Shown here piece after piece: positions 29,568 to 53,586 of a stretch of 64,000 nucleotides of DNA. The notes below the pieces were generated by a model, which searched no databases, was not told where the DNA came from, and saw only the letters and a program-made list of their open reading frames with translations. The first letter of the stretch is position 1; every line of letters starts with the position of its first letter. The translations under genes and the position numbers were made by a program. Source of the stretch: an uncultured archaeon (GTDB taxonomy: Archaea > Thermoplasmatota > Penumbrarchaeia > JASLWR01); NCBI GenBank assembly GCA_964430885.1, contig CAYSHM010000016.1, forward strand, positions 1 through 64,000. Reading direction: 5' to 3'.

Positions 29568-32500
29568 TCATCCGTTTATCTGTCCTTGGGTACCGCAATG
29601 GTTGCAGGTCACAAGAGCTGGATATCCCTCTATCACCGCTGTGTACTGGTCTTTGCAGCTGTGGCACTGCAGGGTCAAGCTTTCAATCGGGGGCGTCTGG
29701 TCTGATGGACCAGGGGGTTGCTCAGCTGAAGCGGCCTGGGGACCTGCGATCTTCTCAAGGTCCCCGAAAATATCATCCATACTTGGGGATTCAGAGGATG
29801 TTGATCCGCTTTCAACACCTGCAGGAGCAAGGGGCGATCCTGCTGCCGGCGGAGGTTGCAGGGACCTTCCCGGTTCTCCTTCAGTACCCTTCTCTGGAAC
29901 CACTTCATCGGGGGCCGGGGGAAGAGCCATTCTATTCAGGTCCTGGTCCCCACCAGCGCTTGAAAAAGTTGGCAGCAGGTATTCAGGTTCCGGTGCTGGA
30001 GTCGAGGGGGGCGAGAGCCGAGGCAGAGCGGACTCTGGACCTGCACCCGATGGCGGCGGAGGGAGCTGTTTTGGCGGGGGCGAGGATGGAGGGGCATTCA
30101 CATTCGAAGACGGGAGATTATTTTGCTGTGAGGGGGTGTTGGCGGGGTAAATTCCTGCCGGACTGCCGTAACCCGGTCGGGTACTAGGAGAAGCATGGGG
30201 CTGCTGAGCAGGCCCTCCTCTGTAAACAGGGGCAGGATAATAAGGATACCGGAGCGGAGGCGGCGCCTGACCGGGCTGTGACGGGGGACCTCCAGACGGA
30301 GTGTTCTTCGGGGTTTCCTCATCCTTTTTCCTCCTGCGTATCAGGATAAATACGATAATCAGAATCAGGAGTAACAGAAGTATCAGCAGCAATATCCACC
30401 ACCAGCTCCAGCCGTTCCCGCCCACGTTAATAACGTTGTCTAATCCGCCGTCATCGTCACCCGAAGTAGGCTTAGACTTCTTTCCCCCCTCGACATCCAC
30501 CTTTATATCGTCGCTTACGTTGTTTCCGTCAATATCGGTCACATAGAGAGTGATGGTATGATTGCCTGGATCCAGCATCGATGTAAAGGACATATTGGAA
30601 CTGAGAAATCCACTGATATTGGAACGCCACGAATAGTTCAGGGCATCCCCGTCCAGATCGGTGGAAGCTGAAGCATCGAAAGCAACCTCCTGGTCATGCT
30701 TGAACTGCACCCTTTTTCCGGCAGGCAGGGTGATTACTGCTTCCGGGACCGAAGTTACATTGATCCTGTAAGGGTCGGAGATCACGGATCCCGTACCTGC
30801 CACATCACCTGCCGAGAAGCGTATATAATTGCTCCGTCCCCACTCATATTCCTCGGCAACATAGATCTTCAGGGGATCTCCCATGATGATATCCAAAGGG
30901 TTCGGGATCTGCCATTCACCAAAGGACCCGTTCTCAGACCCCTCGGTGGATATGGAATATTTCAATCTGCCAGGGTCAACACCAGAGTACCTATCAGATA
31001 TCTCAATGGAAACCTGGACCTCTGGGGGATCATCCATGTTCTCTATTGAAAAATCTCCGAAAACAACAGGTGACTGGTCTATCCGGACATTCATTTCCTC
31101 GCTCAGTAAAGGGCCGTTCCCTGCAAGATCGGTTACCCTCCACCTGACATAATTCAAAGGTCCTTCCGAAAGGGTCACCAAAGCTTCAGCACTGACCTTT
31201 GAGGGATTATCTGCAATACCGGTATCCAAAATCTCTATCTCCACTCCCTCAGCCGTCCAATCCGAAAAGTGAGAAGTTCCACTAAGCTTGTAGGAATATG
31301 AAATACGGTCCAGGGCCAGACCGAATCCGCCTTTATCCTCGAAAACCGCACTTACCTTAACCCCTGAATTCCTGAACCATGGGCCCTCTGCTGGAAGTAG
31401 GGAGGAAATTAAAGGAGGTTTTGAATCAATATTGAACTGGAAATGGCTGGTGTTGCCCCATTGGTTGTATACATCGCAGGCCGTGATATGGAAATAATAT
31501 GTGCCTTCCTTCAGACCGGAGAACTCCCTGGGTGAAGTAAAATTGATCTCTGCACTGGCAGGGTTGGTGATGTCCTTGTAAGGTTCAGATAGGGGACTCT
31601 TGTCCACATGATAGGAATACCCTTTGATGCCGGTTACCTCCCCGGGATGCTCCCAATTGAAAATGGGATCAGTGCTGTTGTAATACATTTCAGGGTCGGG
31701 ATGAGTGGGCGAAGATATGCTGATGAAGCCTGGACCCAGATAATCAAGGTAAATTGTATCATTGAATATTTCAGATACTATTCCGGCGTTGTCCCTGAAC
31801 CTGACACCAATTGTCTTGAGACCGTCTTCCGGTGATAAAGAAATACCCTTTTCTTCCTTATAGGGCTCCCACTGCTGAGCTATGCCCTGATCGTTCATCA
31901 CCTGCATCTCGTCCACACCAGAAGCGTTGTCCTCGGCGTATATCCTCAGTGTCACAAGCTGGCTGTTGGTGCTCTCGGGGTCGAACTGACCTCCCTCTAT
32001 TGTTATGTTCCCAACGGGTTTGGCAGTATCGATCTTGAAGCTCTTCAGTGAGGAATAATTGGACATTGCGTGGTATGCATCCTTTGTCTTCACCCTCCAG
32101 TAGTACTGCCCGTCGTCAAGATCAACAGGAACCTTGTGCTCAGGCAGTGTAGAGTTGACCCAAGAGGAATTGTATATCTGGTCATGCATTCCTGTATCGT
32201 TGTATATCTCCAGTATGAAATCAGACTGGTGATCCCCTGCATCAGGATCTGTGAAGTTCCATTTCAGTGTGGGTGTCGAATCCCCGTGCCAGACTGAAGA
32301 TTGAGGAAAATAGGGTTCAGGGTCGCTTATAAGGTCGTACTCGATAATTATTCTCTCAATGAACGGGGTAACACTGTCATCGGAAGTTGTCATGGTAGCA
32401 TTCCACATAAGACGGGAACCCCTATCTGTAAAAAGAAAATCCGTGTTGTTCTCCATGGTGATCCAGTTCTCACCGTCCACGGTAAGATTGTAGATTATGT

Positions 32501-33626
32501 CAGTTCCAGCAGGTTTGTTCTCATACCATATGATCTTGGCGGCCCCTATGGCAGGCCAATCCATATACATGGGAAGGGACTGTATGGTGCCGTTGGTGAA
32601 ACCCATCTGGTTGCCCCATGTGTAGGCAACATTATCCATTGCATAGGTGTCCTGCCATCCCCTGCTTGTGAACAGTCTGTTATGGAAATAATCGTAACTT
32701 GCATCCACCACGTAGTTACTGCTGATGAAAACCTCATTGGTATAAGCATGGACCGTCCCGCTGTCAGCATCCACTCGGTGGGTGATGTGAGCCTGACTGT
32801 AATCAACGCAGTAAAAGTAATGGCCAACAGCAAAACATGTGCCGTACCCTCCCTTATTGGGAAGACCGCTCACAGTTCGTATCAGGTTCTCGTTCATATC
32901 CCATATCTTTAGAGTTGTATCACACCAGGTATATATGTATGTACCGTCACAGGCCACTCCCTGCTGCTGAGGACCTCTCCAACCCCAGTTTGTAGTACGG
33001 GCGTGATTGATATTGCTGTTCACTGCCTGCTTATCCGCCAGACGTACCTTACGAAGGTTGTTGCTGGACTCTGAAGAGGTATAAAGATGACCATTGGCCA
33101 CGAACATCTGGGTTGAATGCTGTGATTCAGGTACATTCATGTTATCAATGTTGGGCTGACCATTAAAATAATCGTTCCAGCTGGCGAATATCTCCACTGT
33201 GGTACCGCCTCCCCCATTGAGATGATAGTAACGTCCGTTCTCGTCCACAGCCATGGAATTGAAACCGCCGTGACCCACAAAATGGTCGTGATTGGTGACC
33301 TGGCGGATATTGCTCTTGGGGGTGCCGCTTCCCATGAGGGTCACCTTTCCGTTGAAGGTATCTACTATGACCGAAGTGTTGCTCATGGATACATTGTCAA
33401 GCGAAACGAACTCCTCTACCAGACGGTTGATGTAGCGGGTATCTTCACTCTCATGATCACCGGAGGGGGATGATATGTTAATGACATCTGCATATGAATT
33501 TTCCGTATCAGGGTGAATATGAAAGGGCTGATGAGGAAAAAGGAAAAATAATGCTAACAGCAAACAAACCAATGCTGGGGAGAATCTGTTCTTGCGGGGT
33601 GGTATATTGATCATATCGCTCATCAA
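29568..33626 (-). CDS. Array surface receptor 1: olfactomedin-like head, Ig/FN3-like stalk, PKD, TM, Pro-rich tail, C-terminal zinc ribbon
   Basis: 1352-aa ORF with N-terminal hydrophobic segment, WWWILLLILLLLLILIIVFILIRRRKK and CHSC...CNHCG; paralogous to the four upstream genes. Confidence 0.85.
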   Translation of the reverse strand: MMSDMINIPPRKNRFSPALVCLLLALFFLFPHQPFHIHPDTENSYADVINISSPSGDHESEDTRYINRLVEEFVSLDNVSMSNTSVIVDTFNGKVTLMGSGTPKSNIRQVTNHDHFVGHGGFNSMAVDENGRYYHLNGGGGTTVEIFASWNDYFNGQPNIDNMNVPESQHSTQMFVANGHLYTSSESSNNLRKVRLADKQAVNSNINHARTTNWGWRGPQQQGVACDGTYIYTWCDTTLKIWDMNENLIRTVSGLPNKGGYGTCFAVGHYFYCVDYSQAHITHRVDADSGTVHAYTNEVFISSNYVVDASYDYFHNRLFTSRGWQDTYAMDNVAYTWGNQMGFTNGTIQSLPMYMDWPAIGAAKIIWYENKPAGTDIIYNLTVDGENWITMENNTDFLFTDRGSRLMWNATMTTSDDSVTPFIERIIIEYDLISDPEPYFPQSSVWHGDSTPTLKWNFTDPDAGDHQSDFILEIYNDTGMHDQIYNSSWVNSTLPEHKVPVDLDDGQYYWRVKTKDAYHAMSNYSSLKSFKIDTAKPVGNITIEGGQFDPESTNSQLVTLRIYAEDNASGVDEMQVMNDQGIAQQWEPYKEEKGISLSPEDGLKTIGVRFRDNAGIVSEIFNDTIYLDYLGPGFISISSPTHPDPEMYYNSTDPIFNWEHPGEVTGIKGYSYHVDKSPLSEPYKDITNPASAEINFTSPREFSGLKEGTYYFHITACDVYNQWGNTSHFQFNIDSKPPLISSLLPAEGPWFRNSGVKVSAVFEDKGGFGLALDRISYSYKLSGTSHFSDWTAEGVEIEILDTGIADNPSKVSAEALVTLSEGPLNYVRWRVTDLAGNGPLLSEEMNVRIDQSPVVFGDFSIENMDDPPEVQVSIEISDRYSGVDPGRLKYSISTEGSENGSFGEWQIPNPLDIIMGDPLKIYVAEEYEWGRSNYIRFSAGDVAGTGSVISDPYRINVTSVPEAVITLPAGKRVQFKHDQEVAFDASASTDLDGDALNYSWRSNISGFLSSNMSFTSMLDPGNHTITLYVTDIDGNNVSDDIKVDVEGGKKSKPTSGDDDGGLDNVINVGGNGWSWWWILLLILLLLLILIIVFILIRRRKKDEETPKNTPSGGPPSQPGQAPPPLRYPYYPAPVYRGGPAQQPHASPSTRPGYGSPAGIYPANTPSQQNNLPSSNVNAPPSSPPPKQLPPPPSGAGPESALPRLSPPSTPAPEPEYLLPTFSSAGGDQDLNRMALPPAPDEVVPEKGTEGEPGRSLQPPPAAGSPLAPAGVESGSTSSESPSMDDIFGDLEKIAGPQAASAEQPPGPSDQTPPIESLTLQCHSCKDQYTAVIEGYPALVTCNHCGTQGQING

Positions 33627-33819
33627 CCTGGGTTTTATTGGATCGACCTATCGCAATGATGGTGGGAAAGCAGGAAATCATCTAACGTAAAGTACCTGCT
33701 TGAGGGACCCATCTTTAATTGATTAATTGTTGTTATTAATATAAAACTATTATCGAATGAAATACAAGTGCACTTCTTCAAAATCCCCCATGAATTCAGA
33801 GATTTTCACAGTAGAAGGG

Positions 33820-36800
33820 TCATGCATTTATCTGGCCCTGGGTCCCACAGTGGGCACAGGTAACCAGAGCGGGGCCGCTCTCAATTTGAGCAGTGTACTG
33901 GCCTCCGCAGTTATGGCACTGAAGGGTCAACTGGGTTACTTGAACATCTTCTTCAGGCAATTGGACTTCCGTCTCTTCTGATGGCATATCCTTTTCAGGG
34001 ATCTCATCAGGAGCTGGAGGCAGGGCCTTGAGGCTCAGGTCCTGTACGGGACCTGCTGAAGTTGATTGGGGAAGAACATAGCTGGGAGGCGGTGATGCCG
34101 GAGGGGGCGGTAATAGCCTCTTAGGCCTATCCTGAACAGATGAGGCAGGTCCTGCAGATGGTACACCAGGTCCCGACGTTTCCGGAGGTGCAGGTGCATT
34201 ATAATCAGGACCCTGAGAAGCTGGAGCGGGCGGTCCCGGTTGGGCTCCGTAACCTGGAGCTTGATAATATGAACTCTGTGCTTGTGTATTGTATGTAGGA
34301 TAGCCCTGCTGGGGATAGGGATACGAGGGTTGGCCTGAAGGGGGGGGCTGACCATAGGAGCTTTGAGGATATTCTGCCGAGGGCACATCTGCCTTTGTCG
34401 GCGCAGTATCGTCTGCTCCTTCCTCCTTCTTCCTTCTCCTGACCACCAGCAGAACTACCAACAATATCACCAGCAAAAGACAGACCACAATAACTATCAG
34501 CCACCACCAGCTGCTGCCGGAAGAAGCCGATGAGGAATCCAGTGAGGAATCATCGTCATCCGAACTCCCTCCTCCTGAACTCCCTTTGCCAGTGACGGTG
34601 ATGTAGGCCTTCTTGCTCTCGTTCAGCTCATGACCGTCATCCACATAGAGATAGACCACATAATCACCGGGAAGGTCCAGAGTTGTGTTCATGGTAATGT
34701 TCCAACCCTGGAACGCAACAGTTTTCTGAGTGCGGTTCTTTATAAGCCAATAGAACGATAGAACATCTCCCTCGGGATCGCTGGACCCCGACCCATCGAG
34801 AAGCAGCAGGGTGCCGCCTTTCACCTCCTGGTCATCCCTGGGGCTGGTCATCACCGGTAAGGGGGCAGAGTTAACCCATACCCTGTGTGCTTCAGATTCC
34901 ACCAGCGGATTTCCCACCACATCTTTTGCCCTCCATTTGATATAGTTTTCCTTTCCCGGGTCAAAATCAATATCGAGACTTACCAGAATGGAATTCTGTT
35001 TCATGCGGTTCCCCAGTGGCATCCAATCCTTGAAATTCTCCGAACCGTTGCCTTTATCCGAAACCGAATACTCTATAGACTCCCCTAGGACCCCGCTGGC
35101 ATTATCCGCGACAGTGATGCCGCATGAAACCGTCATGTCATTGGTATACTCGTGGAATTCTGGAAAATGCTCCGTGAAATATACCGGGGATGCATCGATG
35201 GACACTGAACGTTCTTCTGTTATTACGGGACCGTTGCCAGATAGATCCGTAACTCTCCAGCGGAAAGCGTTGTTTACACCCTCCTGAAATTCTATTGCAG
35301 TGACTGCCTTAACCTTCACGGGGTTGCCTGCAATACCGGTATCCAATACTTCCATCTCTATATCTGCACCGCTCCAATCAGTCCATTCACTGCTCCCGTT
35401 GACCCTGAAGGAATACTCCAATGTTCCCAGGTCCAAACCGTAACCCTCAACATCCTTGAATATTACCGAGGTATCAACATTTGCTGTCTTGAGCCATACT
35501 TCCTCTTCCGGCATCATCTCATCGACAATAGGCGGGGTAGCGTCAATATTGAATTGATAATGACTAGTGTTGCTCCACTGGTCGTAAACGTCGCAGGCAG
35601 TTATATGGAAGTAATAGGTACCATCCTGAAGTCCCGGGAACTCCCCGGGAAAAGTTGTATTCTGGGCAGCACTCTCAGGCCCGCTGATATCCCTGTAAGG
35701 TTCCGTGGAGGGGGACCCATCCACAAGATATGCATATCCTTTGATACCTGTAACCTCGAATGGGGGCTCCCAGGTAAATATGGGATCCGTGCTGCTGTAG
35801 TACATCTCCGAGTCAGGATGCGACGGGGATGAGATATTTACATCCCCCGGACCAAGATAGTCCAAGTAGATGGAGTCCTGGAATACATCGGACAGAATAC
35901 CCGCATGGTCCCTAAAACGTATTCCCAGTGTCTTTAGGCCATCAAATGTTGACAGGGCCACCCGTTTCTCGGTCTTATAAGGTTCCCACTGCTGGGTCTC
36001 CCCCGAATCGTCTATGATCTGCATCTGGTGCACCCCTGAACCGTTGTCCAAGGCAAATATGGCAAGGTTTACAAGCTGATCGTTCACGCTGAATAAATCC
36101 CCCTCAATAGTAATATTGCCTATCGGTTTGGATACATCTATCTTCATTCTCTTGAGCCCGGAATAATTGGATTCCACATGGAACATATCCTTTGTTTTTA
36201 CGCGCCAGTAATAGGTGCCGTCATCTAGATCCTCGGTTATCCTGTGCTGACCGAAAGTGGAGTTCTGCCAGCTGGAGTTGTATACCTGGTCCTGAAGCAG
36301 AGTATCATTGAATATCTCTATGAGATAGTCAGACTGATGATCTCCTGCATCCGGGTCTGTGAAGTTCCACTGCAGAAGAGGTGTGGAATTGCCCTGCCAT
36401 TCCGATGTCGGGGGGAGATGGGGCACAGGATCGCTGAAAAGATCGTACTCAATAACCACTTTTTCAATGTAGGGTGAAACCTCCGGGTCGGTGGTCGTGA
36501 GGGAGGCATTCCATATCAGTTTGGAACCCCTGTGCTGAAAGATATGGTTGGTATTGTTCTCCATGGTGACCCAGTTCTCACCGTCCACGGTCATGTTGTA
36601 CACGATATCCGTTCCGGCCGGTTTCTTTTCATACCATGTTATCTTCGCTGCGCCTATGGTGGGCTGCTCCATGAAAAGGGCTTTTGACTGAATAAAACCC
36701 AGGCTGTCATGATCCCCGGTACCGCCGAAAGTATAGCAGAAATTATCTATGGTCCAGGTCTTATCAGGGTTCCCTGAATTACCATTGGTCATTATCAGAC

Positions 36801-37740
36801 TGTTTCCAAAATAATCATAATTGAAGCAGGTAAGATATGTGAAGCCCTGCATTACAACATCATTATAGTTCTCGATGTTTCCCGTATCCCCGTCCACTCG
36901 TCTTACAACGTTCCCTACTGAGTAATCAACAGGATAGAAATAGTGGCCTGCAGAAAAACAGGTACTGAGACTGTTCTGGGCTTCCGGAAGGTTGACCTGA
37001 CGCACCAGGTTCTCCTGCATATCATATATCCTCAATAGGTTTCCGCTGTAGGTGTAAATATAAGTACCGTCCGTGGTCAGTCCACACTGAGACCCACCTC
37101 CCCAAGCCCAGGATGTGGCACCCTGGCCGCTGAGCGAGCACTGTACTTTCGTATTGTCCGCCAACCGGTACTTGTCCACAGTATTCGAATTGGAAAAATA
37201 GAGATGCCCGTTCACATATATCATCTGACCGTAATTGGAAGGATTGAAGGGCAGGTTGAAGGAACCTATCTGGTTACCGTTGTTCATGAAGGAGTTCAGG
37301 GAGGAATATATATTGATCTGGTTGGAACTATACTGGTTCCTGATATAGAATTTTCCGTCCTGGGCCACGCACCTTCCGGTGAATCTGTTGTAGTTCCGGG
37401 TTCGATCAGGAGTGGAGAGGTCCCTGATCTCCGATCGGGGATTTTCGCCGCCGCCCGAGAGATAGGTACGTCCAGTATATGTGTTGATCAAAGCAGTAGT
37501 ATTGGAATAATCAATATTGGTGTAATTATTGAACTCCTCCGCAAAGCGGTTGGCGTACCTCGTGGAAGCATAGGTACTGATATCGGTCTTCGAGCTGAAT
37601 CCCTGGATCCGTGAAAACTTCGGGACGGTGTCTTTTATTGAGAAAAAACATACGGTTACCATCAAAGCTGAAATAATTAAGGTTAATAAAACCCTGGCAG
37701 CTCCATCATTCACCAAAATTCGGTTTCTATCTTCGGTCAT
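33820..37740 (-). CDS. Array surface receptor 2: olfactomedin-like head, stalk, PKD, TM, Pro/Gln/Tyr-rich tail, zinc ribbon
   Basis: Start reassigned to ATG 37740 (GGAG RBS); head homologous to receptor 1; CHNC...CAHCG. Confidence 0.85.
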   Translation of the reverse strand: MTEDRNRILVNDGAARVLLTLIISALMVTVCFFSIKDTVPKFSRIQGFSSKTDISTYASTRYANRFAEEFNNYTNIDYSNTTALINTYTGRTYLSGGGENPRSEIRDLSTPDRTRNYNRFTGRCVAQDGKFYIRNQYSSNQINIYSSLNSFMNNGNQIGSFNLPFNPSNYGQMIYVNGHLYFSNSNTVDKYRLADNTKVQCSLSGQGATSWAWGGGSQCGLTTDGTYIYTYSGNLLRIYDMQENLVRQVNLPEAQNSLSTCFSAGHYFYPVDYSVGNVVRRVDGDTGNIENYNDVVMQGFTYLTCFNYDYFGNSLIMTNGNSGNPDKTWTIDNFCYTFGGTGDHDSLGFIQSKALFMEQPTIGAAKITWYEKKPAGTDIVYNMTVDGENWVTMENNTNHIFQHRGSKLIWNASLTTTDPEVSPYIEKVVIEYDLFSDPVPHLPPTSEWQGNSTPLLQWNFTDPDAGDHQSDYLIEIFNDTLLQDQVYNSSWQNSTFGQHRITEDLDDGTYYWRVKTKDMFHVESNYSGLKRMKIDVSKPIGNITIEGDLFSVNDQLVNLAIFALDNGSGVHQMQIIDDSGETQQWEPYKTEKRVALSTFDGLKTLGIRFRDHAGILSDVFQDSIYLDYLGPGDVNISSPSHPDSEMYYSSTDPIFTWEPPFEVTGIKGYAYLVDGSPSTEPYRDISGPESAAQNTTFPGEFPGLQDGTYYFHITACDVYDQWSNTSHYQFNIDATPPIVDEMMPEEEVWLKTANVDTSVIFKDVEGYGLDLGTLEYSFRVNGSSEWTDWSGADIEMEVLDTGIAGNPVKVKAVTAIEFQEGVNNAFRWRVTDLSGNGPVITEERSVSIDASPVYFTEHFPEFHEYTNDMTVSCGITVADNASGVLGESIEYSVSDKGNGSENFKDWMPLGNRMKQNSILVSLDIDFDPGKENYIKWRAKDVVGNPLVESEAHRVWVNSAPLPVMTSPRDDQEVKGGTLLLLDGSGSSDPEGDVLSFYWLIKNRTQKTVAFQGWNITMNTTLDLPGDYVVYLYVDDGHELNESKKAYITVTGKGSSGGGSSDDDDSSLDSSSASSGSSWWWLIVIVVCLLLVILLVVLLVVRRRKKEEGADDTAPTKADVPSAEYPQSSYGQPPPSGQPSYPYPQQGYPTYNTQAQSSYYQAPGYGAQPGPPAPASQGPDYNAPAPPETSGPGVPSAGPASSVQDRPKRLLPPPPASPPPSYVLPQSTSAGPVQDLSLKALPPAPDEIPEKDMPSEETEVQLPEEDVQVTQLTLQCHNCGGQYTAQIESGPALVTCAHCGTQGQINA

Positions 37741-37924
37741 GGAATTCAGCTCCTGCAGGAAACAGCATATACACGGCAGAACTGCCAAAGATACCTGATT
37801 GAGATATATCATTGACAGAAAACAAATCCTGCCTTAGAACCTTACAATATTCTCCCTTGCAATAAAGGATTTTCGGAGGAAATCTCCACTATTTATCCTG
37901 GTCCGCTAATCAGGCAATAGGACC

Positions 37925-40900
37925 CTAACCCTGTATCTGCCCCTGGGTTCCGCAGCTGGTACAGGTCACAAGGGCCGGATAGCTCTCGACCACCGCCGTG
38001 TACTGGCCACCGCAGTTATGACACTGAAGGGTCAGCTCGTTTGAACCAGGCGGAGCCTCGGGAGAGCTAGGGGCAAGTTCTCCCGCAGTTTCTGGCGGAG
38101 TTTCCGGGGGAACAAGTCCCTGAAAGATGGAATCCACGGTAAGATCCGGCGATCCGGGCGCTTCACTATCAGTTCCCGGTGCAGGGGAGGGTTCTGAGGA
38201 TGTTTCCCCCAGGTCGGTTCCCGTTTCAGCCGGAGGTTCAGGTGCAGGAGGCAGGGACAGGAGGTTCAGGTCCTGCTGGCCTCCATCCGTCGAGAATGTG
38301 GGAAGCTCGTAGGATGGCGCGGTGCTCTCTGGAGGGAGTGGTGCCGTATCAGGCTGTTCTTCCGGCCCGGATGGAGGCGGTGCTCCCGGGGGCAGGGCAG
38401 GCCGATCTGCAGGTCCCGCGGTGGAGGCTGGCAGGGTAGAAGATTGAATACTGCCGTAGGCCGGCCCTCCATACCCTGGAGCGGGTTTTCCTGCCCGTGA
38501 AGGAGGTTGAGGCGGAGGCGTCCCTGTATTGTAGCGAGGCTGCGGATATGCACCCTGTTTCTGTCCAGGATAGGGGGCGTAAGGTCTCCCCTTGGGGTAC
38601 TGGGGCGGCATACCGCCGGGTCCAGGTCTGGGACCCTGACCGGGACGCTGTTGGTACCCCGGGCGTCCGGAGGCACCTATTCCGGGAGCGGTCTTGGTGG
38701 GTGTTGGGGTTTCCTCGTCCTCCTTCCTCCGTCTTACCGCAATTATGATCAGAAGCAGTACTATCAGAAGAACTCCAACTATAAGGACCAAAAGCCACCA
38801 CCAGTCCTTGATGAACGAGGAGGAGGACGCGGATTCCAGCGGTTCCTCTCCGGTCTCCGAGGGGCCAGACACAGGGGTGCCGGATCCAGTTATCCTTATG
38901 TTAACCTTCTGGCTAACGTTCTGCTGGTGACCATCATCTACATATAGATATACTATGTAATCTCCTGCTGTTTTCAGAGAAGTGTTCAGAACGGCGGTAT
39001 AGGCCTCGAAAACCTCTGTTTTTGTCTCCTTTGTCTTGACAACCCAGTAGAAGCCTAGTTCATCACCGTCAGGGTCGGAAGAACTTGCAGCGTTAAACAG
39101 GATGTTCTTGTCCGCATCATAGGATTCGCCGTCCCTGGGACTTTTCAGCACGGCTACAGGCGGGGAGTTGACCCAGACCATGTAGGGATCGGTGGTAACT
39201 ATCTCATTGCCCACCACATCAGTAGCTCTCCATTTGATATAGTTGTCCTTTCCCGGTTCAAATTCCAGGTCCAGACTGACCAGTATCACTTCCTGCTGCA
39301 TTCGGCTTCCCGATTCGAACCATTCCTTGAACTCATTCTCATCATCGCCGGAATCAGATATTGAGTACTCTATGGATTCGCCCATGACACCGCTGCCGTA
39401 ATCGGATATTCGGACCCCACAGGTAACCTCGAGATCATTGGTGTATTCACCCTCCTTGGGGAAATGCGAAGAGAAGACGACAGGGGTCCGGTCTATCAGT
39501 ATGGTCCTCTCACTGCTCTCCAGCGGGCCGTTGCCTGCCAGATCGGTGATTCGCCAGTGCACCTGGTTGTTAATACCTTCCTCAAGCTCCACAGACACCA
39601 CTGCCTTCACCTGTGTAGGATTGTTCCCTAAACCCTTCTTCAGGACCTCAAATTCGATGCCCGCATCGGTCCAGGGAGAGAAAGAACTGCTGCTGTTGAG
39701 CTTTACCGAATACTGAATGGTATCAAGGTCCAGACCGAAACCGTTCTTGTCCTCGAATATCACCGAGGTCTCTACATTCTCGCTCCTGAACCAGGCATCC
39801 ATTTCAGGGAGGAGAGAGGAAACCGATGGAATGGTTGAATCAATGTTGAACTGGAAATGTGAAGTATTGCTCCACTGGTCATAGACATCACAAGCGGCGA
39901 TATGGAAATAATATGTACCGTCCTTCAAACCCTTGAACTCTCCCGGTGACGTTGTGGTCTGGGTAGCACTGGCCGGATTTGTCACATCCTTGTATGGTTC
40001 CGAGGTGGGGCCCACATCCACCATATATGCATAACCCTTCACCGCTGTAACCTCGAAGGGCACCTCCCAGCTGAAAACCGGATCCTTGCTGCTGTAGTAC
40101 CACTCAGGATCTGGATGAGTAGTGGAGCTTATTGATATGTCTCCAGGGCCCTTGTAATCAAGATAGACCTCGTCCTGGAATATATCCGATATTATCCCCG
40201 CCCGGTCCTTGAACCTAATACCCACTGTTTTAAGGCCGTCTGTGGGGGAAAGCGCTATGCGTTTTTCAAGCTTGTAGGGCTCCCATGCCTGAGGGCTGCC
40301 AGTATCACTTATGATCTGCATCTCATATACGCCGGAACCGTTATCCACGGCGTTTATTGTGATATCCACAAGCTGATCGTTCACACTGTATACATCCTCC
40401 TCTATGGTTATATTCCCCACTGGTTTCGTGATATCTATCTTCATCCTCTTGGGATGGGAGAAATTGGACTTTGCATGGTACATGTCCGTTGTCCGCGCCC
40501 TCCAGAAATAGGTGCCGTCCTCAAGCTCCTGGGTTATCACATGCTCCCCCAAACTTGAGTTCTGCCAGCTGGAATTGTAGACCAACTCCTGCATCTGGGA
40601 GTCCTTGAAGATCTCCACAAGATAATCGGACTGATGATCAACACTATCCGGATCGGTGAAGTTCCATGTCAATTCTGGAGTTGAAGAGCCCTGCCAGACC
40701 TTGGAGGAAGGGAGATGGGGTTCAGGTTCCTTGACCCGGTCGATCTCAATAACCACCTTGGAAATATAGGGCTGTTTATCCTCATCGTCGGTGGTGAAGG
40801 TTGCATTCCAGATGAGCCTTGACCCCTGATGCTGGAATATGGTATTGGTATGGTTCTCCATTGTGACCCAATGCTCGCCGTCCGCGGTCATGTTGTATAC

Positions 40901-41911
40901 AATGTCAGTACCAGCAGGTTTATATTCGTACCAGGTCATTCGAACAGCACCGATGGTAGGCCATTTAATATACAATGGAAGTGACTGAAAATATCCACGA
41001 TGGGTGGCCTGGGCTGAAACATGATAACCGATGAAACCCCTGTAATTGTGATTGGAGCTGCCGTCAGCGGCGGTTCCTGCACCATTATACTGTACACTGC
41101 CATGGCAGGGATGGTTCTCAACCATATGGGCCCTTGTATTTATACCGAAAAGATAGGGGTTCAGAGGGCGTGCGCCGTGTTCCCTGCAGTGGGTATAACA
41201 TTGCCGTTCAGAGATGGTTCCATAATCATGATAGAAGTAGAGCTTGCCGTTTACCACTGCACTGTTACCGAACTGCTGATATCCTGGAGTTTGACCATTG
41301 GCGTAGGCCAGAATGCAGTAATGCTGCTGGCTCTTGGGCCGGGTATTAACACTGGACCACCCTCCTGTGCTGGTATATGCGTTACTAGCATCTTTGTCCC
41401 CAACCCATCTCTCCAGCTGTTCGTAGGGGGCGTTGTACCCGTAGTGGTTGAAATCCGGGGCACCCATGAACTGGGCACCGTACATATTGGCCATCTCCTC
41501 GGCCTCGTCCCAGGTCATGAGACCGAAATTATAGGTGTACCAGTCTGAATGGTCTCCGCATCCACCAGTGCATTGAGCGTCATGCTGAAAAACCAAGGAA
41601 TTATGGGTGTCACCGGAGAGAATAGCTCGATGGTCGAAAGTATTGACCAGGCAGGTGGTATTCTCCCGGTCCACATAGGTGAGGTTCTTGAACTCCTCAA
41701 CTATCCTCAGCCCGTACCGGCTCCCTTCCATCTCCTGGGCACCGGGTTGATCATCAGGTCCCAGAAGTATCTCCAGCCGTTCTGTTGACATCTTTGGTTC
41801 AGGAGAAATCTGCATATTGATCGGTGAAAAAAACTGGACCGTCATAAATACAAGAATAATGGATACCGACAGGAAAATCTTTTTCCCCGGCCTGTTACTG
41901 GACATGTTCAT
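37925..41911 (-). CDS. Array surface receptor 3: tandem C-type-lectin-like head, stalk, PKD, TM, Pro-rich tail, zinc ribbon
   Basis: Stalk highly similar to receptor 2 but head unrelated (YTYNFGLMTWDEAEEMANMYGA; LYFYHDYGTISERQCYTHCREHGA); CHNC...CTSCG. Confidence 0.85.
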   Translation of the reverse strand: MNMSSNRPGKKIFLSVSIILVFMTVQFFSPINMQISPEPKMSTERLEILLGPDDQPGAQEMEGSRYGLRIVEEFKNLTYVDRENTTCLVNTFDHRAILSGDTHNSLVFQHDAQCTGGCGDHSDWYTYNFGLMTWDEAEEMANMYGAQFMGAPDFNHYGYNAPYEQLERWVGDKDASNAYTSTGGWSSVNTRPKSQQHYCILAYANGQTPGYQQFGNSAVVNGKLYFYHDYGTISERQCYTHCREHGARPLNPYLFGINTRAHMVENHPCHGSVQYNGAGTAADGSSNHNYRGFIGYHVSAQATHRGYFQSLPLYIKWPTIGAVRMTWYEYKPAGTDIVYNMTADGEHWVTMENHTNTIFQHQGSRLIWNATFTTDDEDKQPYISKVVIEIDRVKEPEPHLPSSKVWQGSSTPELTWNFTDPDSVDHQSDYLVEIFKDSQMQELVYNSSWQNSSLGEHVITQELEDGTYFWRARTTDMYHAKSNFSHPKRMKIDITKPVGNITIEEDVYSVNDQLVDITINAVDNGSGVYEMQIISDTGSPQAWEPYKLEKRIALSPTDGLKTVGIRFKDRAGIISDIFQDEVYLDYKGPGDISISSTTHPDPEWYYSSKDPVFSWEVPFEVTAVKGYAYMVDVGPTSEPYKDVTNPASATQTTTSPGEFKGLKDGTYYFHIAACDVYDQWSNTSHFQFNIDSTIPSVSSLLPEMDAWFRSENVETSVIFEDKNGFGLDLDTIQYSVKLNSSSSFSPWTDAGIEFEVLKKGLGNNPTQVKAVVSVELEEGINNQVHWRITDLAGNGPLESSERTILIDRTPVVFSSHFPKEGEYTNDLEVTCGVRISDYGSGVMGESIEYSISDSGDDENEFKEWFESGSRMQQEVILVSLDLEFEPGKDNYIKWRATDVVGNEIVTTDPYMVWVNSPPVAVLKSPRDGESYDADKNILFNAASSSDPDGDELGFYWVVKTKETKTEVFEAYTAVLNTSLKTAGDYIVYLYVDDGHQQNVSQKVNIRITGSGTPVSGPSETGEEPLESASSSSFIKDWWWLLVLIVGVLLIVLLLIIIAVRRRKEDEETPTPTKTAPGIGASGRPGYQQRPGQGPRPGPGGMPPQYPKGRPYAPYPGQKQGAYPQPRYNTGTPPPQPPSRAGKPAPGYGGPAYGSIQSSTLPASTAGPADRPALPPGAPPPSGPEEQPDTAPLPPESTAPSYELPTFSTDGGQQDLNLLSLPPAPEPPAETGTDLGETSSEPSPAPGTDSEAPGSPDLTVDSIFQGLVPPETPPETAGELAPSSPEAPPGSNELTLQCHNCGGQYTAVVESYPALVTCTSCGTQGQIQG

Positions 41912-42071
41912 ATCCTTTTCCTCCAAGGATGTTCCGTATCATTCTGGATGGATGCAGAGAATTCAAGTGCGGATGCGGTTCAAGATCTCGATCATATCTA
42001 TATTTACACTTCGCGCATAATTATTCCCATGGACCACCGTTTAGCCGACTAAGTATAAGCTCTCAATATAT

Positions 42072-42152: not shown

Positions 42153-42860
42153 TTACAGGGATCCTATCATTCCCTGGGCTCCGCAAAAGGGGCACTGGAC
42201 AACTGAAGGAAAGGATTCGATGATCGCTCGGTACTCCCGGCTGCAGGAATGACACTGGAGGGTTTTAGGTTCATCCTCTTTAGGCTCCGGTGGTTCTTCG
42301 TTCATGGGAACTGAAGGTGAAGGTTTGGGAGACGAGGGGGGCGGCGGAGAGTCTGACATGGTATCTATAAGACCTGAAAATACCGTATCCAGCGAAGGAG
42401 AGGATTTTTCCTTTTCCTCTTCTTTCTTTTCTTCCTCGGGGGCCCCTTCTTGTGCTTCTTCCATCCCCGGCGGGGGAGGCGGGGAAGCCTTCTTGAGCTC
42501 TTTTGTATGTTCATGGAGACCGCCGTCAACCTCATCCGGAGCTGGCGGCAGGGCCATCCTGTTCAGATCCTGTTCGCCCTCGGCAGTTGAGAACGAAGGA
42601 AGCTGATACTGGGGTGGGGCTTCCTTGGGCGGCGGAAGCTGTTGTGTTTCGGAAGGCGGAGCCGGAGGCTGAATACCGTGTCGCTTGGATGCCGGAGAAG
42701 GCCGAGGACCTGCATGCTGGGGCAGGGCGGGATACTGGGGCGCAGGCCCGGGCAGGCCCGGTCTTTGGGATTGGTTCATGTTGTACCTATGAGGATATAC
42801 GCTCTGCTGCTGGGCGGGGCCGCCCTGATACTGCGGGGGACTCTGCGGCTGATGGGGGTA
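42153..42860. repeat. Near-identical copy 1 of the tail-coding segment shared with receptor 5
   Basis: Long nearly identical DNA runs with 46361-47050, e.g. CTCATCCGGAGCTGGCGGCAGGGCCATCCTGTTCAGATCCTGTTCGCCCTCGGCAGTTGAGAACGA. Confidence 0.85.
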
Positions 42861-45800
42861 AGGGTATTGAGGGCGCCGTATTGGGGGCTGAGGCGCCTGT
42901 TTAGGTTCGGCAGCATCCTCTCCCTCCCCTTTCTTCTTTCTCCGTCTAACTACAAGCAGCATTATCAGAAGCAGAAGAAGCAGTATTATCACGGCAATTA
43001 TGATCCACCACCACCATGAACTACCTCCACCGCTACCTATAACTCCAGTCCCAGTCCCGGTGGCATCGTCGTCATCGTCATCCTTCCCAAAAGAAGATAA
43101 CCGCTTGATGTCCACAAGTACATCGTCCGATGCCGTGTTGTTATCGGGGTCAGCAATGGTGAGGGTTATTGTGTGATTACCGGGGGTAAGCTGCAGTATC
43201 ACTGTTGAATTACTCCCTATTACCCCCGAGATATTAGAGCTCCAAGCATATGTAAGGTTGTCGCCGTCCAGATCGAAAGACCCTGAACCGTCGAACTCCA
43301 CCACCTGGTCCTCCCGGAACTCGGTACGGCGGTCCTCGGGCCGGGTTATCTTTGCAGTGGGGGCCGATGTTACGTTTATCCTGTAACCAGGTGTAATCAC
43401 GTCATCCCAGCCCACAGCATCATTTGCCATGAACCTGACGTAGTTATCACGGCCCCATTCCAGAGGAAGGTTGCAGTATATGACAAAGGGATTTCCGGTT
43501 ATGATGTTCATTGGTTCGGGAGAGATCCAGTCACTGTATCTTCCCTCTAGGTCTCCTTCAGAGGTGAAGGAATAGTAAATGCTCTCAATATCAACTCCCG
43601 AATCCTGGTCTGACACCCGTATGGAGCACTCAACCTCCGGAAGATCGTCCATATCCTCTATGATGAACTCCCCGAACTCCACTGGCGACACGTCCACCCT
43701 GAGATTGAAGGTCTTGGAATGGACAACCGGGTTACCTGCAATATCCGTACCCCTGAACTGTATGTAGTTCTCCACCCCGGGTTCGAACTTGAAGGTCGCC
43801 GTAACCTGGACTCTACCCTCCTCCACCGTGGTGAGATTGCCGGAGGGTATATCCATCCAAGGAGAGAACTTATCGTCGCCCTCAGTTGACATCCGAACCT
43901 GAAAACTATCCATATCTATCCCGCTCTCACCTCTGTCCCATACCTCGATTGTTGTGGGAATCTCCCTGTAGAGATACCATATCCTTCTGGTGAGCAGTTC
44001 ATCCGAGAACTCCGCAGGAGACGTATCCACCTTCAGACGCCAAGGTTCCGATTCCGAATAATCGTTGCCAGCCACATCCATGGCCTTCCATTTGATATAG
44101 TTATCATCACCCTCCTCAAGCTTGCACTTTGCCTCCACGGTCATCACAATACTGTCCTCCGGGACCCAGACAGGGACCCAAGAACCGAATTGGTGGGGAC
44201 CTGACGTTGATATGGAATAGAATACACTGGAACCGTCAACACCTATCCCTCCGAAATCCTGAATATCCACACTGCAGTCGATGGCGCTCTCATTGAGCCA
44301 GGTCTCATCCGAGGGCGTGAAGTTGCTGAAGAAAACCCCTGTCAGATCCACCTGTATCCCCGCTGAGAAAGCGTATCCAATATTACCCACCTTATCCTCG
44401 CACCAGACAAAGATTGAGTTGTAACCCTCACTCAGACCTCTGATCTCTCCCTCCGTTAGATCGGTAAAGGAGCCATTGGGAGTGAAGGAATTATCGCGGT
44501 TGGAATAATAGTAGCCTTTGAGACCCGAGGCATTGTCCTGAACCTCCTGCCAGGTTATATTAATACTTCTGTGTTTTGTAAAGGGAGACTGCTTCCCGTA
44601 AGCATAAGTCTTTATCTCCCCGGGAGGAAGGGGCGCCTCGGAGTCTATCTTGAGGGGGGTAGTGATGTTGGTTGTGCTGTAGCCGTCAGCAGGGATACTG
44701 ACTATTGTGACATAGAGCTCCTCGTAAGGATCCATTACATCCCTGGCCATCATGCTTATGAACATATTCTCCCCTCTGCTTTGGTTATCCCACCAGATGT
44801 TGCCGCCTGCATCGGCCACCTTCACGTCGAAATATTTCTCTGCAGGATACAGCAGCTGTGCATCCTGGTAATGAACTGTGAGACCCGTCAGGTTCAGCAT
44901 CTCTGCTCCCCTGACCCAGTCTCCTTGCTCCAGCTCTCCCTGGTATTCCCCGGTGATCTTCAGCTCACCCTTGAAGTCCAGGTCGTTCTCCACACGACAG
45001 AGCCACGGAAACCTGTTTTGAAATGACTCCCCGTCATTTGCAGTTACATTGGCAAAGCAGTCCACCCAGCCTTCGTGGGGGAAGGAAAAATTATAATTCA
45101 CTGTGAAATTCAGCCACCACTTGTCCGCTCCGTTATTCGTGATATCACACATATTCGTGATGAGCTCCATGTATGAGTTCTCATCCTGGAGTTTGAAGAA
45201 TTCGTCCCTGGTCCAGTTGTAGCAGAGGGTCGCGTTGGTGGTATTGTAGTCCAAGTGCACCTTCAGCTCTGCAATATCATTCAGCTGGCGGGGGGAGGTG
45301 ACGTTCACCGATAAGGTGTAGGGCCTGTATCGGGCATAGCATGTTCCGTTGTCCGTATCCCCTGCCCTTACAGATTCAACGCTGGGCACAGGTCTCAGAC
45401 CCTCCATGGCCTGCTGTATCTCCGACTGGGAAAGCTCTCTGCCGAAAACCGCCACCTCGTCTATTATCCGTGTATTCTGGCACTGGCCGTCCACGTTATC
45501 ACCGCCTATACACATCAGCGGACCATTACGATTGTCATTTCCTCCAGTCCTTGGAGTGGTTGGAACATTCTCAGTACCCTGGGAATTCTGGTTGCCATCG
45601 ACATACATCCTGAGAGTGTTCTGATTGCAGGTAATGGCTATATGATGCCATTGGTTGTCTACAATGTTTATATTGGTGTTGGTGTTGTAATTGCTGTTGT
45701 CATTGTCGCTTCCACCCCAAAACCTTATACTGCTGCCGCTGGTCTGAATGGAATAACCGTTACGAGGATTGCAGCAGCCACCGAGCATCACCAGACCGCC

Positions 45801-46238: not shown

Positions 46239-46360
46239 ATGCACACCCCACAAGATGAAAGCCATATAGTGCTGGGAATGCATAATAATATTTTCCGCTT
46301 AAACTACGAAAAATCCAACGGGGGTGAGCAGTATTACAGGAAGTAGTTCCTAGGCTAACA

Positions 46361-52044: not shown

Positions 52045-52283
52045 TATTATGTTGAAGTTATATTGGAGCTTACGGGCGTTCAATTATTAGACATCATACC
52101 CATAAGATAAGTAAATAATTACTACTGATATTAATAGGCTAATACTTGTTGGCCACATATACTGATATAAATAATACCTTAATTTTTTATAATATTGCTG
52201 CTTAATTGAAATGATTCTGCCCATGTTACGAATGGATGGGATATTATTAATGAATAAATTGAATTAAAGAGGAGTAACTAGAT

Positions 52284-53537: not shown

Positions 53538-53586
53538 AGATAATAATATCCAATACTGTAATTATTCCAACAACGGCCCGGAACAA

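What the first reader, a model, noticed from the sequence alone, without database searches (positions are those of the whole stretch)
32600..37450. Olfactomedin-like beta-propeller domains in an archaeon (receptors 1 and 2)
Seen: receptor 2 reads QINIYSSLNSFMNN...FNLP...YGQMIYVNGHLYF..SNTVDKYRL...SWAWGGGSQCGLTTDG...NSLSTCF....FYPV....VDGDTG....YLTCFNYDYFGNSL, and receptor 1 is collinear with it. Against human myocilin recalled from memory (QVFEYDLISQFMQG..HILP...GAVVYSGSLYF...SRTVIRYEL...YSWGGYTDIDLAVDE...SVANAF....LYTV....YDTGTG...YSSMIDYNPLEKKL) the motifs match in order over ~200 aa. Established: OLF is a five-bladed propeller known mainly from animals (myocilin, latrophilins, gliomedin). 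The acidic DIDLAVDE metal-site stretch is replaced here by SQCGLTTDG or QQQGVACDG. Inference: either a prokaryotic ancestor of OLF or a horizontally acquired domain.
Basis: partly seen in the sequence, partly recalled or inferred. Interest (0 to 1): 0.85.

Follow-up and report, generated by a model that had tools for sequence, protein, structure and literature searches.

The report
Olfactomedin-type propeller heads on archaeal surface proteins
Two neighbouring giant surface proteins of a marine archaeon carry at their outer tip a five-bladed propeller related to the animal olfactomedin domain, a fold that the papers read here describe only from multicellular animals.

Summary
Two minus-strand genes, R1 (29568-33626) and R2 (33820-37812), encode ~1350-aa single-pass surface proteins. 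Their N-terminal heads (R1 aa 95-350, R2 aa 115-375) are 35-37% identical. R1's head passes Pfam's olfactomedin (OLF) cut-off (28.9 bits against 23.9). R2's does not and is assigned through R1. AlphaFold models of both heads match solved OLF domains best (Z 20.7-22.4 and 18.8-20.4). Glutaminyl cyclase (Z 14-15) and NHL (Z 13) follow. In a Foldseek-independent scan of 48,161 chains, the four OLF representatives rank 1-4.

The OLF calcium-binding residues and the clasp disulfide are replaced, as in gliomedin.

The heads sit on an Ig-like/PKD stalk, followed by a membrane helix, a proline-rich tail and a zinc ribbon. Three adjacent paralogs share this chassis but carry other heads (one is laminin-G).

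Between genera the head is the best-conserved part (71-79% against 51-58% for the stalk). I read it as a ligand-binding module; that is inference.

The family is rare: 5 of 401 genomes sampled in the phylum. Distant bacterial relatives exist, including one from a Fimbriimonadaceae genome.

Whether OLF began in prokaryotes or in animals is unresolved, because no animal sequences could be put in a tree.

The parts
29568..33626 (-). R1: 1352-aa type-I surface protein (receptor 1)
   Evidence: ORF. N-terminal hydrophobic segment, ~1045-aa ectodomain with 25 N-x-S/T sequons, one membrane helix, 251-aa tail with 21.5% Pro and 0 sequons.
32577..33344 (-). R1 OLF-like five-bladed propeller head (aa 95-350; aligned core aa ~100-338 = 32613-33329)
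   Evidence: PF02191 28.9 bits against cut-off 23.9. Model pLDDT 75.7, pTM 0.80, 20 strands. OLF Z 20.7-22.4.
33333..33440 (-). Conserved pre-head segment of R1 (aa ~63-98), shared with R2 and R3 although the heads differ
   Evidence: 39-48% identity among R1-R3 in alignment columns 101-150, while the head columns that follow are 8-29% for R1-R3. Sequences.
32292..32576 (-). Conserved post-head beta-rich segment of R1 (aa 351-445), start of the shared chassis
   Evidence: 56-64% identity among R1-R3. Strands predicted in the equivalent part of the R2 model, at modest confidence.
30324..30404 (-). R1 membrane helix (aa 1075-1101), WWW ... RRRKK
   Evidence: Hydropathy and motif.
29595..29666 (-). 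R1 C-terminal CxxC...CxxC zinc-ribbon-like motif (aa 1321-1344)
   Evidence: Four Cys invariant in R1-R5. Weak Pfam zinc-ribbon hits on R2 and R3.
33820..37812 (-). R2: 1330-aa paralog (receptor 2)
   Evidence: ORF. Topology.
36688..37470 (-). R2 OLF-like propeller head (aa 115-375; aligned core aa ~129-366 = 36715-37428)
   Evidence: 37% identical to R1's head, E 3.8e-45. Model gives OLF Z 18.8-20.4 against glutaminyl cyclase 14.0. No Pfam OLF hit of its own.
34426..34509 (-). R2 membrane helix (aa 1102-1129)
33847..33918 (-). R2 C-terminal zinc-ribbon-like motif (aa 1299-1322)
37925..41926 (-). R3: paralog with the same chassis and an unassigned head
   Evidence: Stalk 63-65% identical to R1 and R2, head 14-21%. 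No family found for the head.
42153..46283 (-). R4: paralog of a second subfamily with a laminin-G-type head (aa 131-290 = 45414-45893)
   Evidence: Laminin_G_3 77.9 bits against cut-off 27.6.
46361..50401 (-). R5: close paralog of R4 with another unassigned head
   Evidence: R4-R5 are 57-92% identical beyond the heads. No family found for the head.

Best explanation
R1 and R2 are single-pass, probably glycosylated, cell-surface proteins of a Thermoplasmatota archaeon. The membrane-distal head of each is a divergent member of the olfactomedin (OLF, PF02191) five-bladed beta-propeller family.

The head lacks the buried Ca2+/Na+ site and the clasp disulfide of myocilin and olfactomedin-1, as gliomedin does. 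It sits on a ~700-aa Ig-like/PKD stalk. A membrane helix, a proline-rich cytoplasmic tail and a C-terminal zinc ribbon follow.

The five tandem genes form a set in which one chassis presents different heads: OLF-like twice, laminin-G once, and two unassigned.

Shown here: homology of R1 to OLF by sequence, the OLF-type fold of both heads by prediction, the topology, the swapped heads, and the conservation pattern.

Inferred: the head is the ligand-binding or adhesion module. It would recognise one conserved extracellular partner (protein or glycan) through a propeller face, as OLF domains of latrophilin do. The tail would couple the protein to something inside the cell.
For: Sequence:
- PF02191 is over its cut-off in R1 and in 4 of 4 R1-type heads. 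OLF is the only Pfam family hit by more than 2 of the 9 heads: 6 of 9.
- The archaeal-only profile A2 finds 8 latrophilin OLF sequences as single long stretches (profile 43-222), E 2.4e-4 to 8.4e-3.
- hhalign of A2 against two strong OLF proteins (Pfam 89.6 and 93.6 bits) gives probability 96.9%, E 1.7e-10, over 189 columns.
- hhalign of A2 against five bacterial OLF-like proteins gives 98.0%, E 1.5e-13, over 211 columns.
- The W-G-G loop, an F and a Y...L motif are invariant or nearly so across all 13 aligned proteins.

Structure:
- R1 model: Foldseek rows above rank 41 are all OLF.
- VIA-align gives OLF Z 20.7-22.4, rmsd 2.5-3.6 A over 224-238 residues. The next classes score 15.3 (glutaminyl cyclase), 15.2 (YjiK) and 13.5 (NHL).
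- In 48,161 chains searched without Foldseek, the four OLF representatives take ranks 1-4.
- R2 model: OLF 18.8-20.4 against 14.0.

Extracellular head: 15-25 sequons in the ectodomains against 0-1 in the tails, and a positive-inside RRRKK after the helix.

Modular set: stalks of R1-R3 are 62-65% identical while their heads are 14-37%. R4's head is Laminin_G_3.

Constraint on the head: between genera, heads are 71-79% identical and stalks 51-58%. Against five database orthologs of R1, heads are 77-82% and stalks 43-48%.

The same head sits on a different, cadherin-like/Big_7 stalk in another family of the class.
Against: - R1 clears the Pfam cut-off only narrowly (24.2 against 23.9 on the whole protein). 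R2's head gives no OLF hit at all.
- With the archaeal-only profile, no protein identifiable as a canonical animal OLF reached E<=1e-3 in the library of 1.84 billion representatives. Only five small single-stretch proteins did, beside the family itself.
- Propellers cross-hit. The same profile gives 94.4% probability (E 8.5e-8, 130 columns) to a DUF6923 repeat protein. It also gives many multi-stretch WD40 hits.
- The language-model search gave no OLF cluster for R1.
- The models rest on 9 sequences (pLDDT 75.7 and 61.6). AlphaFold may have learnt the OLF fold from solved structures.
- Three features typical of myocilin and olfactomedin-1 are missing: the Ca site, the disulfide, and in R2 the loop lysine.
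- No ligand, no expression data and no localisation are available, so the binding role is inference.
Confidence: 0.75

Rival explanations
1. The heads are generic five-bladed propellers of another prokaryotic lineage (glutaminyl-cyclase, YjiK or DUF6923 type). They resemble OLF only by convergence or by blade-level similarity common to all propellers.
For: hhalign to a DUF6923 protein gives 94.4% over 130 columns. Glutaminyl cyclases and YjiK are the next structural class at Z 14-15. R2 has no OLF Pfam hit. The atlas rows for R1 include SGL, Glu_cyclase_2 and DUF6923 clusters at scores of 0.86-0.87, which the tool treats as leads only.
Against: OLF stands 6-7 Z units above that class in three searches. 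The alignments to OLF run over the whole domain (189-211 columns) and include the non-repetitive W-G-G loop. The DUF6923 alignment has a gap across that loop. No Glu_cyclase_2 or DUF6923 hit appeared for any head at E<=10.
Confidence: 0.1
2. The domain was acquired recently from an animal by horizontal transfer into this archaeal lineage.
For: The papers read here place OLF in multicellular animals (PMC4488277, abstract and introduction passages). The archaeal distribution is narrow: 5 of 401 genomes sampled.
Against: - Identity to solved animal OLF domains is only 13-18%.
- The closest relatives outside the archaeal family are a 468-aa protein of unknown origin (E 1.4e-39) and small proteins, some with bacterial PEP-CTERM anchors. 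One of these comes from a Fimbriimonadaceae genome.
- The R1/R2 duplication predates the split of three genera.
- Head GC (0.476-0.492) equals stalk GC and that of neighbouring genes, 0.49 +/- 0.03.
Confidence: 0.03
3. The head is an enzyme (for example a cyclase, lactonase or glycosidase-type propeller) displayed on the cell surface, not a binding module.
For: Many five- and six-bladed propellers in the structural list are enzymes. Invariant polar residues (Q, D, T, H, C) exist in the family. High conservation of the head fits an active site as well as a binding site.
Against: The nearest structural and sequence relatives (OLF) are non-catalytic binding domains. [quoted passage not shown] The metal site is absent here. 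The paralog R4 carries a laminin-G/concanavalin-type fold at the same position.
Confidence: 0.1

Closest known systems
Gliomedin olfactomedin domain (PDB 4D77, 4XAV, 5YBY)
   Same: Five-bladed OLF propeller. Best Foldseek E-values (8e-11), Z 21.4-21.7. Like the archaeal heads it has no Ca2+ site and no N/C disulfide (PMC4488277, abstract and passages). It lies in the extracellular part of a membrane-anchored protein.
   Different: It is an animal protein. About 14-15% identity. Gliomedin keeps Asn/Asn/Ser at the metal position and binds Na+, where the archaeal heads have Gly/Thr/Ser (R1) or Gly/Thr/Asn (R2).
Latrophilin (ADGRL1/3) olfactomedin domain (PDB 5AFB, 5CMN, 6SKA)
   Same: Highest Z (22.4), and the only natural PDB hits of the archaeal-only sequence profile. 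An OLF domain near the N-terminus of a large cell-surface receptor. The papers read here say it mediates binding to FLRT (PMC10084454 passage).
   Different: Seven-helix adhesion GPCR chassis, a Ca2+ site, and animals only. The archaeal chassis is a single helix with a proline-rich tail and a zinc ribbon.
Olfactomedin-1/noelin and myocilin OLF domains (PDB 6QHJ, 6QM3, 4WXQ)
   Same: Fold (Z 20.7-21.9). Collinear profile alignment including the W-G-G loop. R1 keeps an aromatic residue and a lysine at the positions of the Tyr347/Lys399 pair.
   Different: The Ca2+/Na+ ligands Asp356, Glu404 and Asp453 (PMC6857237) correspond to Gly223, Thr263 and Ser310 in R1, and to Gly244, Thr284 and Asn331 in R2. 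Cys409 of the disulfide corresponds to Gly.
Bacterial OLF-like secreted proteins (P0046/P0099 type; P0099 from an uncultured Fimbriimonadaceae bacterium)
   Same: Prokaryotic, with an N-terminal signal-like segment and one OLF-like propeller. PF02191 scores 30.2 and 38.4 bits. hhalign to the archaeal heads gives 98.0%.
   Different: About 300 aa with a single domain. P0046 has a PEP-CTERM anchor by Pfam. 18-23% identity to R1's head. Found in 1 of 301 genomes sampled in that phylum.
Glutaminyl cyclase-type five-bladed propellers (PDB 2IWA, 3MBR)
   Same: Five blades and a similar size. The next structural class after OLF (Z 14-15).
   Different: Enzymes. 6-7 Z units lower than OLF. No sequence match at E<=10.

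Membership tests
Olfactomedin domain (Pfam PF02191) | Score at or above the curated cut-off of 23.9 bits: R1 | tested here: met
   24.2 bits on the whole protein, 27.9 in six frames, 28.9 on the head alone. 4 of 4 R1-type heads score 28.4-30.8 bits.
Olfactomedin domain (Pfam PF02191) | Score at or above the curated cut-off: R2 | tested here: not met
   No OLF row for R2 at E<=1 or for its head at E<=10. 1 of 4 R2-type heads scores 18.6 bits. R2 is linked through R1 (E 1e-62) and through its model.
Olfactomedin domain (Pfam PF02191) | Five-bladed beta-propeller of ~250 aa closest to solved OLF structures | tested here: met
   Predicted models only. 20 strands. OLF Z 20.7-22.4 for R1 and 18.8-20.4 for R2, next class 14-15.
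Olfactomedin domain (Pfam PF02191) | Collinear conserved core including the W-G-G loop between blades B and C | tested here: met
   W and the second G are invariant in all 13 aligned archaeal, bacterial and strong-OLF proteins. They align to the same loop of noelin.
Olfactomedin domain (Pfam PF02191) | Buried Ca2+/Na+ site formed by Asp, Glu/Asn and Asp side chains (present in olfactomedin-1, myocilin and latrophilin; absent in gliomedin) | tested here: not met
   By the profile alignment, Asp356/Glu404/Asp453 correspond to Gly223/Thr263/Ser310 in R1 and Gly244/Thr284/Asn331 in R2. Ligand list from PMC6857237.
Olfactomedin domain (Pfam PF02191) | Disulfide between an N-terminal Cys and a blade-D Cys (Cys227-Cys409 in olfactomedin-1; absent in gliomedin) | tested here: not met
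   The Cys409 position is Gly268 in R1 and Gly289 in R2.
Olfactomedin domain (Pfam PF02191) | Extracellular domain of a multidomain protein | tested here: met
   Predicted topology only: the head lies N-terminal of the single helix, sequons are confined to the ectodomain, and the positive-inside rule holds.
Olfactomedin domain (Pfam PF02191) | Occurrence in multicellular animals, as stated in PMC4488277 | tested here: not met
   The closest named relatives of R1 are from Candidatus Thermoplasmatota archaeon assemblies. The flanking genes are ordinary archaeal genes.
Glutaminyl cyclase-type propeller (Pfam PF05096) | Closest solved structures are glutaminyl cyclases | tested here: not met
   Z 15.1-15.3 (R1) and 14.0 (R2), against 20.7-22.4 and 18.8-20.4 for OLF.
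Glutaminyl cyclase-type propeller (Pfam PF05096) | Sequence match to the family model | tested here: inconclusive
   No row at E<=10 for 8 heads or at E<=1 for 9 heads. HMMER's filters drop most weak matches.
WD40 repeat (Pfam PF00400) | Several WD40 units scoring over 27 bits | tested here: not met
   Best 11.4 bits, E 0.55, on one head. The WD40 rows arise from one blade of the head matched many times to repetitive proteins (0-2 stretches pass on their own).
DUF6923 repeat propellers (Pfam PF21959) | Full-length profile match | tested here: inconclusive
   hhalign gives 94.4% but over only 130 of 260 columns, with a gap over the W-G-G loop. No Pfam row for the heads.

The most novel reading that the evidence does not exclude
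The olfactomedin propeller is a prokaryotic invention. It arose as an exchangeable ligand-binding head of archaeal and bacterial surface proteins and entered the animal stem lineage by transfer, as has been proposed for the teneurin shell. The metal-free, disulfide-free archaeal and bacterial forms, like gliomedin, would then show the ancestral state. The buried calcium site of myocilin would be a later animal addition.
Probability: 0.25. Interest if true: 0.8.

Novelty: new variant of a known kind. Interest (0 to 1): 0.6.

Why it matters
The OLF papers read here treat the domain as a feature of multicellular animals (PMC4488277). Its functions there, including that of glaucoma-associated myocilin, are still poorly defined.

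An archaeal and bacterial branch widens the family to all three domains of life and makes the domain's origin a testable question.

It also offers small, metal-free, disulfide-free propellers that may be easier to express and mutate than myocilin's aggregation-prone domain.

For archaeal biology, the locus shows a modular surface-protein system: one chassis, interchangeable heads, and about twenty genes in the genome with the same zinc-ribbon tail. In it the head, not the stalk, is the conserved part. That points to specific and stable extracellular partners in a marine archaeon that has not been cultured.

Tried and rejected
- Single-sequence phmmer of R1's head against PDB gave only WD40 and designed-repeat rows. 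These arise from one blade matched repeatedly, so I rejected them as an artefact.
- The same artefact heads the list (Cake and Scone designs) and fills most of the 81 rows.
- Language-model atlas search with R1's head: recognition below the tool's threshold and no OLF cluster. No support either way.
- Word-index searches to enlarge the bacterial group and to fetch named animal OLF proteins returned 3 proteins and 1 protein. No animal OLF sequence was therefore available as a stored protein.
A single protein was used instead.
- Viral contigs: 42 pattern matches, none a relative.
- Metagenome contigs: only 2 loci. Their downstream ORFs are not related heads.
- Sequencing runs: no RNA holder listed.
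- The heads of R3 and R5 gave no family in Pfam, NCBIfam or PDB sequence searches.
- Model coordinates are not readable in the script box. I could not test whether the invariant Cys next to the former metal site forms a disulfide, or which face of the propeller carries the conserved residues.
- Literature: seven searches found no paper describing an archaeal or bacterial olfactomedin domain or this receptor family. The library lacks most subscription journals, and supplements (for example S1 Fig of PMC4488277) could not be seen.


Full report
**What is there**

The window holds five tandem minus-strand genes of 1330-1376 codons: R1 29568-33626, R2 33820-37812, R3 37925-41926, R4 42153-46283 and R5 46361-50401.

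Each protein has:
- an N-terminal hydrophobic segment;
- an ectodomain of 1010-1048 aa with 15-25 N-x-S/T sequons;
- one very hydrophobic helix bracketed by WWW and RRRKK;
- a 201-265-aa tail with 19-22% proline and 0-1 sequons;
- a C-terminal CxxC...CxxC motif whose four cysteines are invariant in all five.

The N-terminal head is therefore predicted to be extracellular and membrane-distal.

Pfam finds PKD and Ig-like domains in the stalks. The flanking genes are ordinary: NMD3, phosphoglucose isomerase, an alanine-racemase-fold protein, two PHO4 phosphate transporters, a PhoU-like protein and acyl-CoA dehydrogenase.

The closest named relatives of R1 come from assemblies labelled Candidatus Thermoplasmatota archaeon. 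The genome held has 3.13 Mb and is 91.6% complete.

**Are the heads olfactomedin-like? Sequence evidence**

R1's head (aa 95-350) and R2's head (aa 115-375) are 35-37% identical, E 1e-62. They are the only two copies in the genome.

Pfam's OLF model (PF02191, cut-off 23.9 bits) scores:
- R1 at 24.2 bits on the whole protein, covering profile positions 25-233 of 246;
- 27.9 bits in a six-frame search;
- 28.9 bits, E 1.1e-6, on the head alone.

All four R1-type heads (window and three related genomes) pass at 28.4-30.8 bits. R2's head gives nothing at E<=10. One of four R2-type heads gives 18.6 bits, and the head of a more distant genome (G162) gives 17.9. OLF is hit by 6 of the 9 heads; no other Pfam family is hit by more than 2.

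A profile built from the nine archaeal heads alone (A2) was searched against PDB sequences. Its only natural single-stretch matches are eight latrophilin OLF sequences, E 2.4e-4 to 8.4e-3, over profile positions 43-222. The rows above them are designed repeat proteins matched blade by blade.

Profile-profile comparison of A2 gave:
- 96.9% probability (E 1.7e-10, 189 columns) with two proteins that are strong OLF members (89.6 and 93.6 bits). One of them is surrounded by eukaryotic OLF clusters in the atlas, 28 of 30 hits.
- 98.0% (E 1.5e-13, 211 columns) with five small OLF-like proteins (P0046, P0099, P0023, P0081, P0090); P0046 carries a bacterial PEP-CTERM anchor and P0099 lies in a bacterial genome.

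As a caution, the same profile also gives 94.4% to a DUF6923 repeat protein. That alignment covers only 130 columns and has a gap over the W-G-G loop.

**Structure evidence**

An AlphaFold2 model of R1's head was built from 9 sequences without templates. It has pLDDT 75.7, pTM 0.80, and twenty strands plus one short helix, which fits five four-stranded blades.
- Foldseek against PDB lists only OLF domains above rank 41, where the first glutaminyl cyclase appears.
- VIA-align gives OLF domains Z 20.7-22.4 (rmsd 2.5-3.6 A over 224-238 residues, 13-15% identity). Calcium-site myocilin mutants score 16.9-18.1, glutaminyl cyclases and YjiK 14.0-15.3, and NHL domains 13.5.
- A search of 48,161 representative chains that does not depend on Foldseek puts the four OLF representatives at ranks 1-4 (Z 21.3-21.9), followed by glutaminyl cyclase at 15.1.

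A longer model of R2 (aa 62-505) has pLDDT 61.6 overall and about 70-88 in the propeller. It gives the same order: OLF 18.8-20.4, glutaminyl cyclase 14.0.

**How the heads differ from animal OLF**

I used the HMMER alignment of the broader profile to noelin chains, the multiple alignment, and the ligand list of the 1.25 A olfactomedin-1 structure (PMC6857237, passages read).

| Olfactomedin-1 residue | Role | R1 | R2 |
|---|---|---|---|
| Asp356 | Ca2+/Na+ ligand | Gly223 | Gly244 |
| Glu404 | Ca2+ ligand | Thr263 | Thr284 |
| Asp453 | Ca2+/Na+ ligand | Ser310 | Asn331 |
| Cys409 | disulfide | Gly268 | Gly289 |
| Tyr347 | loop pair | Trp214 | Trp235 |
| Lys399 | loop pair | Lys258 | Gln279 |

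Gliomedin likewise lacks the Ca2+ site and the disulfide, and is described as closest to primitive OLFs (PMC4488277, abstract and passages).

A cysteine next to the former metal site (Cys264 in R1, Cys285 in R2) is invariant in all nine archaeal heads. Its partner, if any, could not be determined because model coordinates cannot be read.

This mapping depends on a profile that includes the two strong OLF proteins, so it is an alignment-based inference.

**Distribution and relatives**

- In 401 genomes sampled across the phylum, the head was found in 5. These are all 4 genomes of the window's own family, each with an R1-type and an R2-type copy, and 1 genome of another family in the same class.
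- In the library of 1.84 billion representatives, the archaeal profile found 81 proteins at E<=1e-3.
  - Five of them score E<=1e-30. Four are large proteins: the window's own, two close relatives and P0009. The fifth is P0010, a 468-aa protein of unknown origin with a bacterial-looking signal peptide.
  - Five small proteins match in a single stretch over most of the profile. One further single-stretch row (P0072) covers profile 124-207 and was not examined. One four-stretch row is the DUF6923 protein P0043.
  - The remaining 69 rows are multi-stretch. I checked only the top one (P0011) in Pfam; it is a WD40 repeat protein. I infer the same blade-repeat artefact for the rest.
- JGI metagenome contigs gave 2 loci and viral contigs gave none.
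- One bacterial relative (P0099, PF02191 38.4 bits) lies in an uncultured Fimbriimonadaceae genome. It was the only hit among 301 genomes sampled in that phylum.
- P0009 and the G162 protein carry the same head on a different, cadherin-like/Big_7 stalk, with the same kind of helix, proline-rich tail and zinc ribbon.
- An unrooted tree of 18 heads separates the archaeal heads plus P0010 from the bacterial and strong-OLF groups (support 95/96). R1-type heads sit on a long branch within the archaeal side. No animal sequences could be included.
- Head GC (0.476-0.492) equals stalk GC (0.482-0.495) and that of 16 other genes (0.49 +/- 0.03).

**What the locus says about function**

Within the genome, the stalks of R1, R2 and R3 are 62-65% identical, while their heads are 37% (R1-R2) or unrelated (14-21%). 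A short conserved segment also precedes the head in all three. R4 and R5 form a second subfamily, and R4's head is a laminin-G/concanavalin-type domain at 77.9 bits. The array is therefore one chassis presenting different heads.

Between genera the pattern reverses. Heads are 71-79% identical while stalks are 51-58%. Against five database orthologs of R1, heads are 77-82% and stalks 43-48%.

The head is thus the most constrained part. The stalks of neighbouring paralogs resemble each other more than they resemble their orthologs' stalks. That fits concerted evolution or recent head replacement.

My reading is that the OLF-like propeller is the ligand-recognition module for a conserved extracellular partner. 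It is held away from the membrane by the stalk, and the tail couples it to the cell interior. This is inference from position, from the relatives' roles and from the conservation pattern. No ligand, expression or localisation data exist, and no RNA run was listed.

**Verdict**

This is a divergent, metal-free branch of a known fold, in a new domain of life and a new protein architecture.

The collection's precomputed Pfam column already lists PF02191 for some members. Seven literature searches found no description of it. The origin question remains open.

Noticed in passing
whole genome G000 (e.g. contigs C4, C34, C5, C18); window 29571-29750 and equivalents: A profile of the last 60 aa of R1-R5 (the zinc-ribbon tail) finds 22 places in the genome at E<=0.01, 13 of them at E<1e-6. 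17 lie in open frames of 940-3282 aa. The genome seems to hold a large family of giant surface proteins sharing one cytoplasmic tail.
   Followed up: partly
window 30405-32576, 34510-36687 and the R3 equivalent: The stalks of the tandem paralogs R1-R3 are more alike within this genome (62-65%) than R1 or R2 stalks are to their orthologs in other genera (51-58%). The heads show the opposite. This suggests gene conversion among stalks or recent head exchange.
   Followed up: partly
window 40937-41776 (-), R3 head: R3's head has no match in Pfam, NCBIfam or PDB sequences. By eye and from recall only, its middle part resembles a C-type-lectin-like pattern. This is untested.
   Followed up: partly
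window 49502-50284 (-), R5 head: R5's head has no match in Pfam, NCBIfam or PDB sequences.
   Followed up: partly
window 45414-45893 (-), R4 head: R4's head is a Laminin_G_3/concanavalin-type domain (77.9 bits against cut-off 27.6). This is another fold best known from animal extracellular proteins, sitting at the same position as the OLF-like heads.
   Followed up: no
P0009; L008 (G162:C195): In another family of the same class, the OLF-like head follows an extra ~130-aa N-terminal domain. It sits on a cadherin-like/Big_7 stalk, yet the protein ends in the same kind of helix, proline-rich tail and zinc ribbon.
   Followed up: partly
P0010 (468 aa, origin unknown): This is the closest non-archaeal-type relative of the heads (E 1.4e-39). 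It has a bacterial-looking signal peptide and a C-terminal region with paired repeats that look dockerin-like by recall. Pfam gave no family at E<=0.01.
   Followed up: no
window 50788-54327: Two tandem PHO4-family phosphate transporters and a PhoU-like (DUF47) gene lie directly beside the receptor array.
   Followed up: no
window 32577-37470: The stretch is held by 4 runs of one marine-metagenome study, 2 of which may be the source of the assembly. No RNA run was listed.
   Followed up: no
G170:C67 (L007, L011): In one related genome the R1-type and R2-type genes are also adjacent on one strand but in the opposite order. In two others they lie on different contigs.
   Followed up: no
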